From a virus (Duplodnaviria; Caudoviricetes), in IMG/VR virus record IMGVR_UViG_3300045996_000928, positions 1-51,252 of that record: 51,252 nucleotides of DNA; one strand, written 5' to 3'. Under the pieces are notes generated by a model, which was not told the DNA's origin, ran no database searches, and saw nothing but the letters and a program-made list of their open reading frames with translations. Made by a program: the position numbers and the translations under genes. Below, one piece after another: positions 45,109 to 47,903 of this stretch; positions within the stretch are counted from its first letter, which is position 1; each line of letters begins with the position of its first letter.

Positions 45109-47196
45109 TTAATCGTTTTTAGGTATGTAGTATGCCTGAAAACGTGTTGTTTCTTTGTATTCAGGACTTTTTATAAGCCCATCACCGGCACCCGCTAAAC
45201 CCTCTGCGCCCCCCTCGTCAATGACTACCTTGCTATCAACCTCTTTAGGTACTCTAAAGCATATTTGTACAGGAAAGTTAACTTTGGCATCGCCTGTAAT
45301 AACTTTTACTGAAGCCCTTTGTGTAGCTGACACAATCCTAAATCCAGTTGAGCGACCTTTTTGCAATAACACACGTAAGTTTTCTTCAAGTGATTTTAAT
45401 TCGCCTGTTTTTTGCAGGGCCAGTTTTGGCTTTCCAGTTTTGGCATAATTGCCCACTTCAACCATTTCTTTAACCGCCAACTCATTGCCTTTTCTTGCTG
45501 CGGAAACAGCATCCGCAAACTCGTCGAATACAACTAAAGTTTTTGTTTTTTTACCATCTTTTACTAGTTCATTCATGTACTCAACAAGATTTGCCATTTC
45601 AGCTTCTATCTCTGAAATTTCGTTATACACTTTATAGCCTCTGCGCTTGTAATCCATAAATTCATATTTCGGGTCAAAAATTACTATTTGGTCAACCCCT
45701 GCTAATTCAGCGTACTCAATAGTTGAGCGTATTGATACAGATTTTCCGCTGCCTGTTGCACCGCATATAAGCATGTGAGGTGTAGAATGGTTATTTAAAT
45801 CCCAATAGATAACATTTTCGAAGTTATCCCGGCCAATTGGTATCTTCATGCCGTTAAGGTCTTTTGGATTGAACAGCAAGTCTCTTTCGCGCTTTTTAGC
45901 TAATTCAACTGCTAAGTATGATTTACCCTCATACACTACAAGGTCATTCGATATGCGGACTGTGGAAACATCTAAGGCGTTTGCTATATCCAATTTGTGG
46001 GAGTGTATGGAAGATATTTTAACCCCGGCTGATATTGATAGTAAATAAGTATTACTTGAATAACCATCAAAGGCGTGTTTAACCTCAACTATTAGCCCGA
46101 AAGAGCGTAACACGTGTTCTATTTTTTGCTGTTGTGTCATATTTTTATTTGAAAAATCGTACTGTATAAATTCTGATGCGTTTTTTTGAAACTCCCTGAT
46201 AACTTTCGGGTTAACGGTTGCTATTGAAGCATCACGTATTTTTTTAAGGCGTTTGGATATTAACTCACGTTTATGAAGTGGCACGTCAAATTCCTCTACT
46301 TCAGACAATAAAGTTTTCATCCAAAAATCATATAGTTCAGCTTTGTCTACATAATTGTCGGCTTGATTGATAACATAAGTATAGTCGGGGTCGCTCACAG
46401 CCTCACACATGCGTTTTAAAGGCTCATAAAGCAAGTGTTCATATAGTCGCCTGGTATCTTTGTTTACATCAACTGAAATAGGCACTACCTGCGCTGATTT
46501 GTCTTTATTTTGAGACGGCTTATTTTCAATGAATTTTACTTTACCTACTTCAAGTCCTGATTTCGCTTCATAAACATTAACATAAGTTATGGCCTGCTCA
46601 CCTATTGATAACCGGGCCTCTTGCTCATCTGTAAATGAAACTTTTGATTTATGATCCACTATTACTATTTGATCGCTGTAGTTAAGGTAAACAAGGTCAA
46701 TTTGAGCATGGCAGGGCATTGGTATGTCAACACCGTTTACAGCAACCCATTCATTGCAATAAACCTCAACATCAATTACCTCTTTTATATCATCTATGTA
46801 AACATTAATATCACTAAAGAAATTTCGTATTAGCTTAGTAGCTACTTCAGTTGCTTTAATTCTGCATTCCTCAACCGTTGGCGTTGTTTTCTGAATTTTC
46901 CAAATATTTGCCGGGCGTTCATCAATGTACTCAAAGGCAACTTTCTCGAGCGTAACAACATCTAAAACGTTACCGGCTTTATATTCTAAAAAGAATGATT
47001 TTAAAGCCTCATGATAAGCGTTGCCTGCCATTGTGGTTGAGGATAACCTACCTTTAATGTTGTAGATATAGCCCATTTCAAATGCCTTTTCATTACGGGC
47101 AAATGATGATACTTTGCTATAACTCCAACTACTTATTAAAAAGTTGGAAAGGTGTGTATCTATTTCTTGCTGATTGTATGTTTTATAGATACTCAT
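45109..47196 (-). CDS. PD-(D/E)XK nuclease fused to an FtsK/SpoIIIE translocase
   Basis: N-terminus SYSK, GNAYH, IDLV, VDHKS, EQAITY; C-terminus with FtsK alpha-like domain, HMLICGATGSGKS, VVFDEFAD, KGRSTG, ATQR. Confidence 0.85.
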   Translation of the reverse strand: MSIYKTYNQQEIDTHLSNFLISSWSYSKVSSFARNEKAFEMGYIYNIKGRLSSTTMAGNAYHEALKSFFLEYKAGNVLDVVTLEKVAFEYIDERPANIWKIQKTTPTVEECRIKATEVATKLIRNFFSDINVYIDDIKEVIDVEVYCNEWVAVNGVDIPMPCHAQIDLVYLNYSDQIVIVDHKSKVSFTDEQEARLSIGEQAITYVNVYEAKSGLEVGKVKFIENKPSQNKDKSAQVVPISVDVNKDTRRLYEHLLYEPLKRMCEAVSDPDYTYVINQADNYVDKAELYDFWMKTLLSEVEEFDVPLHKRELISKRLKKIRDASIATVNPKVIREFQKNASEFIQYDFSNKNMTQQQKIEHVLRSFGLIVEVKHAFDGYSSNTYLLSISAGVKISSIHSHKLDIANALDVSTVRISNDLVVYEGKSYLAVELAKKRERDLLFNPKDLNGMKIPIGRDNFENVIYWDLNNHSTPHMLICGATGSGKSVSIRSTIEYAELAGVDQIVIFDPKYEFMDYKRRGYKVYNEISEIEAEMANLVEYMNELVKDGKKTKTLVVFDEFADAVSAARKGNELAVKEMVEVGNYAKTGKPKLALQKTGELKSLEENLRVLLQKGRSTGFRIVSATQRASVKVITGDAKVNFPVQICFRVPKEVDSKVVIDEGGAEGLAGAGDGLIKSPEYKETTRFQAYYIPKND

Positions 47197-47903
47197 GGCA
47201 TTTGGGTTTTATTTTGGAAACCACTTAATAACTCATTGTATTTTGCAGTAGATACAAGGTTTTGAGCGTATGCCCTTACTAAATCAGCTTTAGTTTTAAT
47301 TGCCTTTATGGTGGTTGGCTTATCAATATTCTTATCGGTTTCCTGCTCATCTTCAGGTACTACTTTGTGGGCCGGTTTGTCTGAAATGTTATAAGGGGTG
47401 TAATCATCTTCAATTTTTCGCATCAGGTCAGATCCAAATCGTTTGCCTATTTTTTTGGCTGCGTTTTTAATTGCTTCGGCATATGCATTTGGGGCTGCTA
47501 ACTTTAAAGCAGTTTGCAACTTTTCAACATGAAAGTCTATTATTTGAGTACCCGATTTTTGCTGTATAAGTGCTGCGCCTATTCCATCATAGTTTAGCCA
47601 TTGCATCATTATTGGATGAAAAACTTTAACCCGGGCTGCAACCTCAAACTCATTAAGTACTTGCTTTGACCATAGTATCTCAAATTGCACCATTCCAAAG
47701 AAAACTTTGTCCAGGTCTTTTTCAATAACTGAAATAGGCACATAGGTAATGTTTTTACCGTTTATGCTTTCGGTTACTACTTTGGTGGGCTTTGCGTTTA
47801 ATGAAGTGGTGAAGTTCTGCATATCAGCAAGAAATTGCTTCCTCACTTCTGGCGACATCATTTTAAAACTGCCGGAATCTGTTACTTGTAATTCGGTACC
47901 CAT
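47193..47903 (-). CDS. Rad52/Sak-like single-strand annealing protein
   Basis: YVPI...EKDLDKVF and A.AEAIKNAAKKIG..FG.DL motifs. Confidence 0.65.
   Translation of the reverse strand: MGTELQVTDSGSFKMMSPEVRKQFLADMQNFTTSLNAKPTKVVTESINGKNITYVPISVIEKDLDKVFFGMVQFEILWSKQVLNEFEVAARVKVFHPIMMQWLNYDGIGAALIQQKSGTQIIDFHVEKLQTALKLAAPNAYAEAIKNAAKKIGKRFGSDLMRKIEDDYTPYNISDKPAHKVVPEDEQETDKNIDKPTTIKAIKTKADLVRAYAQNLVSTAKYNELLSGFQNKTQMP

What the first reader, a model, noticed from the sequence alone, without database searches (positions are those of the whole stretch)
45109..47903. Recombination module with a nuclease-FtsK translocase fusion next to an annealase
Seen: one 695-aa ORF joins a RecB-like PD-(D/E)XK nuclease (IDLV...VDHKS...Q...Y) to an FtsK alpha-like domain and a complete FtsK ATPase (Walker A GATGSGKS, Walker B DEFAD, KGR, ATQR), with no membrane anchor or gamma domain. 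It is ATGA-coupled to a Rad52/Sak-like annealase. Established: temperate phage recombination modules normally pair an annealase with an ATP-independent exonuclease (Red, RecET). Inference: a single-chain motor-driven end-resection machine analogous to HerA-NurA or AddAB; alternatively a translocating nuclease active against host or competitor DNA.
Basis: partly seen in the sequence, partly recalled or inferred. Interest (0 to 1): 0.82.

Follow-up and report, generated by a model that had tools for sequence, protein, structure and literature searches.

The report
Phage annealase paired with nuclease–FtsK motor
A temperate phage of Bacteroidota-type bacteria, like thousands of its relatives, replaces the usual small exonuclease of its DNA-recombination gene pair with a nuclease fused to an FtsK-type DNA motor, and the partner annealing proteins, whatever their fold, carry a shared C-terminal tail.

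Summary
A 695-aa ORF (45109..47196, −) joins a RecB/Cas4-type PD-(D/E)XK nuclease to FtsK alpha and beta (ATPase) domains, with no membrane anchor and no gamma domain. It overlaps by ATGA a 236-aa protein with a Rad52 fold.

The fusion is not a one-off:
- at least 2769 protein clusters match it;
- relatives occur in 236 places in species-representative genomes and 211 in viral contigs.

In all 61 full-length genes examined, one of nine partner families lies just upstream (58 at −1, 3 at −2). By sequence, 40 are annealases of four kinds (RecT, Sak4-like, ERF, Rad52-like). Fifteen more are probable Rad52-superfamily annealases by fold.

Relatives of the window's annealase that lack the fusion are followed instead by YqaJ or stand-alone PD-(D/E)XK exonucleases. 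So the fusion fills the exonuclease slot.

New here: annealases next to the fusion share a tail ending [DE][ML]P. It is found in 84 of 92 distinct tails, against 0 of 36 controls.

The biochemistry is untested. I found no description in print. First-stage readers of this scan flagged the same architecture on other DNA. Verdict: a new variant of a known kind; interest 0.7.

The parts
47193..47903 (-). Annealase gene (236 aa), Rad52/Sak-like single-strand annealing protein
   Evidence: ORF. AF2 model pLDDT 85.7. Foldseek RAD52 8bjm_A E 1.6e-7 prob 1.0, Mgm101 3.7e-3, Sak 80alpha 4.7e-3. 4 of 42 relatives hit PF04098.
47454..47852 (-). Rad52-like core of the annealase (about residues 18-150: helix, beta-hairpin sheet, long helix)
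   Evidence: Secondary structure and pLDDT above 90 over this stretch. RAD52 alignments of 146-159 columns.
47208..47318 (-). Small C-terminal helical domain of the annealase (residues 196-232), after a disordered linker
   Evidence: Helices 196-201, 205-213 and 219-232 with block pLDDT about 90. Residues 180-188 have pLDDT below 50.
47196..47204 (-). Terminal tail residues Q-M-P of the annealase, an instance of the [DE][ML]P-type C-terminus shared by annealases that precede this fusion family
   Evidence: The tail ends in [ML][PL] in 84 of 92 distinct tails next to fusions against 0 of 36 controls.
47193..47196 (-). ATGA overlap of the annealase stop and the fusion start
   Evidence: The same 4-nt overlap occurs in 45 of 61 loci.
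45109..47196 (-). Nuclease-FtsK fusion gene (695 aa)
46432..47130 (-). PD-(D/E)XK nuclease domain (residues 23-255): D167, D181-x-K183, Q201xxxY205, E144
   Evidence: PDDEXK_1 E 2.6e-9. phrog_1218 exonuclease 6.4e-10. Residues at least 95% conserved in 144 sequences. Positions.
46150..46431 (-). Conserved linker region (residues 256-349) of unknown fold, with N277 and D280 at least 95% conserved
   Evidence: Mean conservation 0.66, as high as the ATPase. No family hit. Stand-alone relatives of about 275-300 aa extend into it.
45901..46149 (-). FtsK alpha domain (residues 350-432)
   Evidence: PF17854 E 1.6e-8. Profile match to FtsK 2iuu from position 358.
45112..45900 (-). FtsK beta (RecA-like ATPase) domain, residues 433-695. 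Walker A 479-486 (45739..45762), Walker B 558-562 (45511..45525), R615, Q626-R627

Best explanation
The two genes form a two-component phage recombinase of the exonuclease-plus-annealase kind, like Red Exo/Beta and RecE/RecT. Here the small ATP-independent exonuclease is replaced by a PD-(D/E)XK nuclease fused to an FtsK alpha-beta motor.

Proposed mechanism:
1. The FtsK part assembles as a ring on double-stranded DNA at an end. This is inferred from homology to hexameric FtsK.
2. ATP hydrolysis moves the ring along the duplex (inferred).
3. The N-terminal nuclease domains, tethered to the alpha face, digest one strand and leave a 3' single-stranded tail (inferred; polarity unknown).
4. The annealase, made from the translationally coupled upstream gene, is loaded on that tail. 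It anneals it to a complementary strand for genome circularisation, replication restart or exchange with related phages.
5. Annealases of unrelated folds that serve this fusion family carry a common C-terminal peptide: a basic [ED]KK..[LM][KR] stretch, then a variable spacer, then [DE][ML]P-COOH. I propose this peptide is the docking element for the fusion. That would explain how annealases are swapped so often.

Shown here: the domain make-up, conservation of both catalytic centres, the gene linkage, the slot equivalence and the tail association. Not shown: any enzymatic activity or physical binding.
For: Domains and catalytic residues.

Spread: 2769 proteins at E<=0.001 among 8000 scored candidates, with the 120 best all 678-724 aa. 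There are 236 relatives in genome contigs and 211 in viral contigs.

Linkage in 61 full-length genes (60 species-representative loci plus the window). The upstream same-strand gene belongs to these families:
- RecT types, 27.
- Sak4-like, 7.
- Rad52-like, 4.
- ERF, 2.
- unk1, 15.
- unk8, 6.
Of these, 58 sit at -1 and 3 at -2, and none lies elsewhere in the loci. In 45 of 61 loci the two genes overlap by 4 nt.

unk1 is a probable annealase. Its model has pLDDT 82. Foldseek ranks 1-9 are Mgm101, RAD52 and Red-beta, with E 7e-3 to 2.7e-2. VIA-align gives RAD52 Z 7.1 with 138 residues aligned, and Mgm101 Z 6.4.

Replication: all 56 distinct viral fusion sequences have a -1 gene of the same families. 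In a divergent second fusion family, 18 of the 18 loci with room have RecT within two genes upstream.

Partner swaps: the annealase family changes at least 22 times on the 61-tip fusion tree.

Slot equivalence: 51 viral loci hold an annealase of the window's family and none holds the fusion. The gene after the annealase is YqaJ (PF09588 E 1.2e-16 and 6.7e-14) or DUF3799/PDDEXK_1. A stand-alone relative of the nuclease half sits right after an Erf-like annealase, followed by NinB/Orf and SSB. HMMs built from these downstream exonuclease genes found nothing in the 141 fusion loci, which include the complete window genome.

The phage has its own large terminase and portal, so the motor is not the packaging ATPase.

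Tail: [ML][PL] at the C-terminus in 50 of 56 and 34 of 36 distinct tails next to fusions, against 0 of 36 controls (Fisher p 2e-24). The basic motif occurs in 44 of 92 against 1 of 36. Within the window's own annealase family, the tail is present in 3 of 3 members next to a fusion (window, L207, L209). It is present in 0 of 51 viral-locus members that lack the fusion. Codon variety shows selection on the protein. The acidic position uses GAA, GAT, GAC and GAG. The M/L position uses ATG plus six Leu codons. Pro is kept in 5 loci without the ATGA overlap.

Against: No activity or binding has been measured.

The nuclease fold of the N-terminal half rests on sequence only. A family profile found no solved nuclease (best 9iac_A at E 0.17).

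unk1 matches annealase structures only at middling scores (Z about 7; Foldseek E above 1e-3). unk8 (6 of 61) is unidentified apart from atlas leads at 0.92. So 21 of 61 partners are not proven annealases.

FtsK motors translocate duplex DNA and are not known to unwind it. How one strand would reach the nuclease is unexplained.

The window's own tail (…NKTQMP) has Q, not D/E, at -3. It also lacks a clear basic motif.

The second fusion family pairs with RecT proteins whose tails are acidic (…EESDDE) and lack [ML]P. So the tail is not universal to the architecture.

The controls for the tail come from viral contigs of unknown hosts. A host-lineage effect is therefore not excluded.

PHROGs files the motor family under 'moron, auxiliary metabolic gene and host takeover'.
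Confidence: 0.62

Rival explanations
1. The fusion acts later in recombination or replication, not in end resection. The FtsK ring would drive branch migration, or strip proteins from joint molecules or concatemers, and the PD-(D/E)XK domain would cut branched DNA like a resolvase. It is still part of the recombination module, but it is not the strand-resecting exonuclease.
For: FtsK-type motors move on duplex DNA and do not unwind it (established knowledge of FtsK). The PD-(D/E)XK superfamily includes junction resolvases (recalled). The gene lies at the head of the replication module: a DnaA-C-like HTH protein and an O-like/DUF1376 protein follow it. No separate resolvase was looked for in the window.
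Against: The nuclease half belongs to the RecB/Cas4-type PDDEXK_1 family with the QxxxY motif, and it matches PHROG 'exonuclease' families. Its stand-alone relative follows an Erf-like annealase in a classical module. In the window's annealase family the same slot holds YqaJ or DUF3799 exonucleases. No other exonuclease of those kinds was found in the 141 fusion loci. DUF1064, a separate small protein, recurs downstream in 8 loci.
Confidence: 0.15
2. The fusion is a weapon or takeover factor: a translocating nuclease that degrades host or competitor DNA. Its place beside the annealase would then be a matter of shared early expression only.
For: PHROG 1358 is filed under 'host takeover'. The ATPase part resembles ATPases of defence systems in PADLOC: mad8 3.9e-22, SspH 1.6e-14, HerA models. 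Nuclease plus HerA/FtsK-type ATPase pairs are a known theme in defence (recalled).
Against: The PADLOC matches cover only the ATPase (residues 431-692) and no nuclease-bearing model matched. The linkage is to annealases specifically and is kept through at least 22 partner swaps, mostly with a 4-nt overlap. The slot is that of the recombination exonuclease. The partner-specific tail is hard to explain by co-expression alone.
Confidence: 0.08
3. The module reading is right, but the shared annealase tail is not a dock for the fusion. It could bind a host factor common to these hosts (for instance SSB or the sliding clamp), bind DNA, or regulate the annealase itself.
For: The tail resembles an SSB C-terminus without its last Phe. 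SSB-like genes in 3 fusion loci end in DDDLPF, DDDDLPF and EEDVPF. [quoted passage not shown] The tail-less controls may come from other host lineages. The basic stretch could simply bind DNA.
Against: Within one annealase family the tail tracks the fusion: 3 of 3 against 0 of 51. RecT proteins that precede the second fusion family lack it in 0 of 18. It is found on at least four unrelated folds, in each case next to this fusion family.
Confidence: 0.3

Closest known systems
Two-component phage recombinases (lambda Exo/Red-beta, RecE/RecT, YqaJ/YqaK-type pairs)
   Same: An annealase gene and a nuclease gene are adjacent, co-oriented and often overlapping. The annealase family is interchangeable among RecT, ERF, Rad52/Sak and Sak4. 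In the window's own annealase family the slot is filled by YqaJ or stand-alone PD-(D/E)XK exonucleases. Red-beta docks on Exo through its C-terminal domain (PMC6393309, abstract).
   Different: The nuclease partner here carries a complete FtsK alpha-beta ATPase of about 345 residues with conserved Walker motifs. The classical exonucleases are ATP-independent toroids (recalled). The proposed docking element is a terminal peptide shared across annealase folds, not a family-specific domain.
HerA-NurA end-resection complex of archaea and some bacteria
   Same: A ring ATPase of the FtsK-HerA superfamily is combined with a nuclease for processing of DNA ends before recombination. This is the nearest functional analogy (PMC9960219, search listing and abstract start only).
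   Different: Here there is one polypeptide rather than two subunits. The ATPase is of the FtsK clade (2iuu at E 1.4e-78; HerA chains only 1e-6 to 1e-7). The nuclease is PD-(D/E)XK, not NurA. The context is a phage annealase module, not Mre11-Rad50.
Cellular FtsK/SpoIIIE DNA translocases
   Same: The alpha and beta domains are present with all ATPase motifs. The nearest non-fusion relatives fetched (about 30% identity) are cellular FtsK proteins.
   Different: There is no N-terminal membrane domain, no long linker and no gamma (KOPS-reading, XerD-activating) domain. The NCBIfam FtsK equivalog scores 87.6 bits against a cut-off of 1566.
AddAB / RecBCD helicase-nucleases
   Same: An ATP-driven motor is coupled to a RecB-type PD-(D/E)XK nuclease with the QxxxY motif for resection of duplex ends (recalled for AddAB/RecBCD; motifs here).
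   Different: The motor is a ring translocase of the FtsK type, not an SF1 helicase. Only one Cys (C162) is invariant and one (C111) nearly invariant in the 28-sequence alignment A2. So an AddB/Cas4-like iron-sulfur cluster is unlikely.
Defence systems that pair a nuclease with a HerA/FtsK-type ATPase (PADLOC mad8, SspH, HerA models)
   Same: The ATPase part matches these models: mad8 3.9e-22, SspH 1.6e-14.
   Different: The matches cover the ATPase only. The gene is on a phage, beside an annealase, in the replication-recombination module.

Membership tests
PD-(D/E)XK nuclease superfamily, RecB/Cas4-like branch (Pfam PDDEXK_1) | Profile match above the curated cut-off | tested here: met
   PF12705 at E 2.6e-9, 37.8 bits against a cut-off of 22, residues 23-255. 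phrog_1218 'exonuclease' at 6.4e-10.
PD-(D/E)XK nuclease superfamily, RecB/Cas4-like branch (Pfam PDDEXK_1) | Catalytic D ... (D/E)xK plus the QxxxY motif, conserved across the family | tested here: met
   D167, D181, K183 and Q201 (with E144) are at least 95% conserved in 144 sequences. Y205 is present in the window and invariant in A2.
PD-(D/E)XK nuclease superfamily, RecB/Cas4-like branch (Pfam PDDEXK_1) | Restriction-endonuclease-like fold shown by structure | not tested
The sequence profile found no solved nuclease (best 9iac_A at E 0.17).
PD-(D/E)XK nuclease superfamily, RecB/Cas4-like branch (Pfam PDDEXK_1) | Four-cysteine iron-sulfur cluster of Cas4/AddB | tested here: not met
   Only C162 is invariant and C111 nearly invariant in A2. 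No Cys is at least 95% conserved in the 144 sequences.
Cellular FtsK/SpoIIIE (orthologs of the division translocase) | Alpha domain and beta RecA-like ATPase with Walker A, Walker B and arginine residues | tested here: met
   PF17854 and PF01580. 2iuu at E 1.4e-78. G479-S486, D558, E559, R615, Q626 and R627 are at least 95% conserved.
Cellular FtsK/SpoIIIE (orthologs of the division translocase) | N-terminal membrane domain | tested here: not met
   The highest Kyte-Doolittle 19-residue window scores 0.88. The N-terminus is the nuclease domain.
Cellular FtsK/SpoIIIE (orthologs of the division translocase) | C-terminal gamma winged-helix domain | tested here: not met
   No PF09397 hit in the fusion, which ends at 695 just after the beta domain. 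Cellular FtsK proteins scanned the same way give PF09397 at 8e-22 to 2e-23.
Exonuclease-annealase two-component recombinase | Annealase and nuclease genes adjacent and co-oriented, kept across genomes | tested here: met
   61 of 61 genes, all 56 distinct viral copies and 18 of 18 second-family loci with room. Of the 61 partners, 40 are annealases by sequence, 15 are probable by fold and 6 are unidentified.
Exonuclease-annealase two-component recombinase | The nuclease resects duplex ends 5' to 3' to give the annealase its substrate | not testable with these tools
   Needs an enzyme assay.
Exonuclease-annealase two-component recombinase | Specific physical contact between the two proteins | not testable with these tools
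   Only indirect evidence exists: the partner-specific C-terminal tail. See Tried and rejected for the one complex job.
HerA-NurA | HerA-clade ATPase with its HAS barrel, and a NurA (RNase H-like) nuclease | tested here: not met
   The ATPase is FtsK-clade (FtsK at 1.4e-78 against HerA chains at 1e-6 to 1e-7). The nuclease is PD-(D/E)XK. It may work like HerA-NurA but is not a member.
Rad52/Sak superfamily of annealases (for the 236-aa protein) | Rad52-type fold: beta-beta-beta-alpha core with a long N-terminal helix | tested here: met
   Model pLDDT 85.7. RAD52 at E 1.6e-7, probability 1.0, 146-159 columns. 18 matches at E<=0.001, of which the listed ones are RAD52 chains.
Rad52/Sak superfamily of annealases (for the 236-aa protein) | Match to the Pfam Rad52_Rad22 profile | tested here: inconclusive
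   The window protein has no hit. 4 of 42 relatives hit PF04098, best 3.3e-6.
Rad52/Sak superfamily of annealases (for the 236-aa protein) | Binds single-stranded DNA as a ring and anneals complementary strands | not testable with these tools
   Needs biochemistry.

The most novel reading that the evidence does not exclude
This is a modular, ATP-powered recombination system. An FtsK-type ring carrying six nuclease heads resects DNA ends processively. It is recruited by a short portable C-terminal peptide ([ED]KK..[LM][KR], spacer, [DE][ML]P-COOH). Annealases of at least four unrelated folds (RecT, Sak4/RecA-like, ERF, Rad52) have acquired this peptide independently. Any tailed annealase could then plug into the same motor-nuclease. 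That would explain the 22 or more partner swaps on the fusion tree. It would also give a ready-made, host-adapted recombineering pair for Bacteroidota, including abundant human-gut Bacteroides phages.
Probability: 0.35. Interest if true: 0.85.

Novelty: new variant of a known kind. Interest (0 to 1): 0.7.

Why it matters
Phage exonuclease-annealase pairs are the basis of recombineering, and textbooks treat them as ATP-independent. This is a large and apparently undescribed branch. It has thousands of members, many on complete temperate phages of Bacteroidota and in human-gut viral contigs. In it, the exonuclease is a nuclease fused to a DNA-pumping motor.

If the mechanism holds:
- It is a single-chain counterpart of HerA-NurA and AddAB that arose in phages.
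- It shows that an FtsK motor can be put to work in end resection.
- It offers a natural source of recombination tools for Bacteroidota, where such tools are scarce.

The tail shared across unrelated annealase folds is a concrete, cheaply testable hypothesis for how partner specificity is encoded and how partners are exchanged. It also corrects a database label: PHROG 1358 files the family under 'host takeover'.

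Tried and rejected
Complex prediction. I sent the fusion (alignment A2) with annealase residues 186-236. The three runs scored 0.53, 0.00 and 0.30, the median was below the mark, and the verdict was 'no answer'. It counts neither for nor against binding.

Sequence searches that found nothing:
- PDB by sequence with the annealase alone.
- PDB with its family profile.
- PDB with the unk1 profile.
- NCBIfam and PADLOC for the annealase, unk1 and unk8.
- hhalign between my shallow cluster alignments linked only two RecT clusters. 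It did not place unk1, unk8 or the window family.

First neighbourhood test. A profile of the window's own annealase family found no homolog beside any other fusion. For a moment this looked like a refutation of the linkage. It was overturned when the upstream genes proved to be annealases of other families.

Cultured phages (INPHARED). 195 records match, none over 80% or more of the protein, and all through the motor only (Bacillus, Mycobacterium and other phages).

A single-protein scan of genome contigs found nothing. The alignment scan succeeded.

The genome search on the window's own record for PF09588, PF12705 and PF00436 gave no match. PF12705 is demonstrably present. So this route failed its positive control, and I draw nothing from the YqaJ and SSB negatives. 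I used HMMs built from the exonuclease genes downstream of the tail-less annealases instead.

Split forms. Short hits of about 300 aa to the nuclease half (P0237 and others) could be fragments or true splits. P0237's relatives in viral contigs were all full-length fusions, so there is no evidence for a split. I could not see their own contigs.

Packaging ATPase reading: rejected, because the phage has a large terminase and a portal.

Nucleotide-level explanation of the tail (a start-site or coupling signal): rejected on codon variety, on retention of Pro without the overlap, and because YqaJ-coupled junctions with the same 4-nt overlap lack it.

Literature. Searches and passages read gave no description of a nuclease-FtsK fusion beside annealases. 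Iyer et al. 2004 (FtsK-HerA superfamily) and Iyer et al. 2002 (annealase classification) are the papers most likely to mention it. Neither is held and I saw nothing of them. Supplements were not consulted.

Full report
**1. What is there**

The window is a complete virus record of 51,252 bases. It has a 127-base direct terminal repeat (1-127 equals 51126-51252) and an estimated completeness of 100%. It encodes an integrase, a large terminase, a portal and tail proteins, so it is a temperate tailed phage.

On the minus strand, a 236-aa ORF (47193..47903) is followed by a 695-aa ORF (45109..47196). The two overlap in ATGA.

The 695-aa protein has three recognisable parts, all above the Pfam cut-offs:
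- PDDEXK_1, residues 23-255, E 2.6e-9.
- FtsK_alpha, residues 350-432, E 1.6e-8.
- FtsK_SpoIIIE with overlapping HerA-type models, from residue 450.

PHROGs gives an 'exonuclease' family for the N-terminus (phrog_1218, 6.4e-10). It gives 'FtsK/SpoIIIE-like' for residues 337-693 (phrog_1358, 5.4e-48). Solved FtsK motors match at 9.9e-26 with the single sequence and at 1.4e-78 with a family profile.

There is no gamma domain and no hydrophobic segment. Cellular FtsK proteins scanned in the same way show the gamma domain clearly.

**2. The small protein is a Rad52-type annealase**

It has no Pfam, NCBIfam or PDB sequence match of its own. A model built on 42 relatives (pLDDT 85.7) matches human RAD52 at Foldseek E 1.6e-7 and probability 1.0. 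Yeast Mgm101 and phage 80alpha Sak follow lower down. Four of the 42 relatives reach the Rad52_Rad22 profile.

**3. The fusion is a large family**

A word-indexed search returned 2769 proteins at E<=0.001 among the 8000 candidates it scored. The best 120 are all 678-724 aa, 62-74% identical and of the same domain set. Sources name them 'FtsK/SpoIIIE family protein' or 'PD-(D/E)XK nuclease family protein'.

Scans with a family alignment found relatives at 236 places in species-representative genomes. The 60 full-length copies kept are nearly all Bacteroidota, plus one Puniceicoccaceae genome and a few bins with other labels. The same alignment found 211 places in viral contigs. No cultured phage record holds the full protein: 0 of 195 matching records cover 80% or more.

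An exhaustive search with residues 1-340 gave 114 representative clusters:
- Most are fusions of 640-790 aa.
- Some are very divergent (27-29% identity) yet keep the same three domains.
- Two carry an intein with an HNH domain, placed between the FtsK alpha domain and the C-terminus.
- A few are stand-alone nucleases of about 275 aa.

Across 144 fusion sequences both catalytic centres are at least 95% conserved. These are E144, D167, D181, K183 and Q201 in the nuclease. In the ATPase they are the Walker A loop, D558, E559, R615, Q626 and R627.

**4. Linkage to annealases**

My first test looked like a refutation. A profile of the window's annealase family found no homolog beside any of the other fusion genes.

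The upstream genes told another story. In 61 full-length genes (60 loci plus the window), the gene just upstream is on the same strand and overlaps by 4 nt in 45 cases. These genes fall into a few clusters. Their identities come:

| Upstream family | Count | Basis |
|---|---|---|
| RecT types | 27 | three clusters; PF03837 down to 1e-44, phrog_561 at 1e-57 |
| Sak4-like | 7 | AAA_24, phrog_1366 and phrog_124 |
| Rad52-like | 4 | includes the window |
| ERF | 2 | PF04404 |
| unk1 | 15 | unknown by sequence |
| unk8 | 6 | unknown by sequence |

In three loci a short ORF intervenes and the partner lies at -2. No partner-family gene lies anywhere else in the loci.

unk1 was folded (pLDDT 82). Foldseek ranks 1-9 are Mgm101, RAD52 and Red-beta, but at E 7e-3 to 2.7e-2. 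An aligner that does not depend on Foldseek puts RAD52 first (Z 7.1, 138 residues aligned) and Mgm101 third (Z 6.4). These Z values are middling by that tool's own guidance. I call unk1 a probable annealase.

unk8 has only atlas leads: a RecT cluster and a Rad52 cluster, both at 0.92.

**5. Replication and swaps**

In 80 viral loci (56 distinct fusion sequences), every distinct copy has a -1 gene from the same families, including two of the window's own family. This set is redundant. One gut-type phage supplies many near-identical copies.

A second fusion family is related to the first only at 27% identity in the nuclease half. It has a RecT-type gene at -1 in 15 loci and at -2 in 3, out of the 18 loci with upstream room.

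On a tree of the 61 fusion proteins the partner family changes at least 22 times, where 9 is the minimum possible. The window's nearest relative (66% identity) sits beside a RecT. This was a quick-search tree with SH-aLRT support only.

**6. The fusion sits in the exonuclease slot**

52 viral loci were fetched with the window's annealase family, and 51 of them have an annealase ORF. None of the 51 holds the fusion. In 47 of them I found a downstream gene, often with the same 4-nt overlap.

Those downstream genes are YqaJ-type exonucleases (PF09588 at 1.2e-16, 6.7e-14 and 5.5e-4). Others are stand-alone DUF3799/PDDEXK_1 nucleases. Two of the singletons scanned stayed unidentified.

The one stand-alone relative of the fusion's nuclease half whose context I could fetch lies directly after an Erf-like annealase. 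A NinB/Orf mediator and an SSB follow it.

HMMs built from these downstream exonuclease genes found nothing in the 141 fusion loci, which include the complete window genome.

**7. A shared tail**

Listing the C-termini of the upstream proteins showed that unrelated families end alike. There is a basic [ED]KK..[LM][KR] stretch, then a variable spacer of about 6-12 residues, then [DE][ML]P at the very end.

Counting distinct tails:

| Set | Ends in [ML][PL] | Ends in [DE][ML]P | Basic motif |
|---|---|---|---|
| Genome set | 50 of 56 | 30 of 56 | 22 of 56 |
| Viral set | 34 of 36 | 20 of 36 | 22 of 36 |
| Control (annealases of the window's family without the fusion) | 0 of 36 | 0 of 36 | 1 of 36 |

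Fisher's test gives p 2e-24 for the ending and 2.5e-7 for the basic motif.

Within that one annealase family, only 2 of the 115 proteins found end in MP. All three members seen next to a fusion carry the tail (window, L207, L209).

The pattern is not a nucleotide signal. The acidic position uses four codons. The M/L position uses ATG and six Leu codons. Pro is kept in five loci whose stop does not overlap the start. YqaJ-coupled junctions with the same overlap lack it.

Points against a simple story:
- The window's own tail is a weak instance (…NKTQMP).
- The second fusion family's RecT partners end in …EESDDE.
- The control phages may have other hosts.
- SSB-like genes in three fusion loci end in DDDLPF-type tails. 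The annealase tail looks like an SSB tail without its last Phe, so a host partner is a live alternative.

**8. Mechanism**

The shown facts fit a recombinase pair in which the nuclease-motor fusion prepares single-stranded DNA for the annealase. Ring formation, ATP-driven movement, strand choice and docking through the tail are all inferred. [quoted passage not shown]

The main mechanistic gap is that FtsK motors move on duplex DNA without unwinding it.

Rivals are set out in their own section:
- A later role in branch migration or resolution.
- A host-takeover nuclease.
- A tail that binds something other than the fusion.

**9. Comparison and novelty**

It works like Red/RecET pairs in gene logic. 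It would work like HerA-NurA or AddAB in coupling a motor to a nuclease. It is a member of none of these.

It belongs to the FtsK/SpoIIIE ATPase superfamily but fails two defining features of cellular FtsK: the membrane domain and the gamma domain.

Eight full-text searches and the passages I read gave no description of it. The classic survey of phage recombinase context does not contain the word FtsK (PMC2896510). The two Aravind-group papers most likely to mention it are not held, so prior mention cannot be excluded.

Unchecked first-reader notes of this scan report the same architecture in other genomes. My census agrees with them.

**10. Limits**

- ORFs were called mechanically, taking the longest frames from the first start codon.
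- Viral partners were classified with HMMs built from the genome set.
- The nuclease fold is supported by sequence only.

Noticed in passing
P0240 (967 aa) and P0264 (785 aa), homologs of the fusion: Two homologs carry an intein-splicing domain with an HNH endonuclease between the FtsK alpha domain and the C-terminus (P0240 residues 552-758; P0264 residues 360-567). This is where the ATPase lies in the window protein. Inteins usually sit in conserved sites of proteins that matter to their host element (recalled).
   Followed up: partly
window 44425..44826 (-): A 133-aa phage protein matches the DnaA C-terminal helix-turn-helix domain (PF08299, E 6.3e-22). It lies two genes downstream of the fusion and just before an O-like/DUF1376 replication protein (43628..44395). 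It may be a DnaA-box-binding origin factor of the phage.
   Followed up: no
window 1..127 and 51126..51252; ORF 50964..51251 (+) and 1..513 (+): There is a 127-base direct terminal repeat, so the record is a circularly closed assembly. The XRE-type HTH ORF that runs off the 3' end probably continues into the 5'-open ORF at the start of the window.
   Followed up: partly
window 41115..41888 (-), 38171..38863 (-), 36938..37630 (-): A PAPS-reductase-like gene (phrog_424, 2.8e-42) and two DNA methyltransferase genes (phrog_23224 at 2e-46; phrog_757 at 9.7e-50) lie in the early region downstream of the replication genes.
   Followed up: no
Loci L001-L063, genes +1 to +4 after the fusion: Recurrent downstream neighbours are DUF4494 (15 loci), DUF1064 (8), a Lin1244_N protein (8), an HU-like protein (6) and a crAss001_48-related protein (5). 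DUF4494 has no known function, and its steady company with this module may be worth a look.
   Followed up: partly
Loci L291-L310 (second fusion family, related to P0301): A divergent nuclease-FtsK family of 626-726 aa is preceded by RecT proteins with acidic C-termini (…EESDDE) instead of the [DE][ML]P tail. This may be a different docking solution for the same architecture.
   Followed up: partly
SSB-like ORFs in 3 fusion loci: Their tails are DDDLPF, DDDDLPF and EEDVPF. The annealase tail [DE][ML]P looks like this motif without the terminal Phe.
   Followed up: no
Tool behaviour: the genome search with family PF12705 on the window's own record found no candidate, although hmmscan scores the encoded protein at 37.8 bits. 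Negatives from that route on short, divergent domains should not be trusted without a positive control.
   Followed up: yes
unk1 model m9408a1bdd39d, residues 184-248: [quoted passage not shown] The score is weak, but the domain is the one that binds Exo and SSB in lambda.
   Followed up: no
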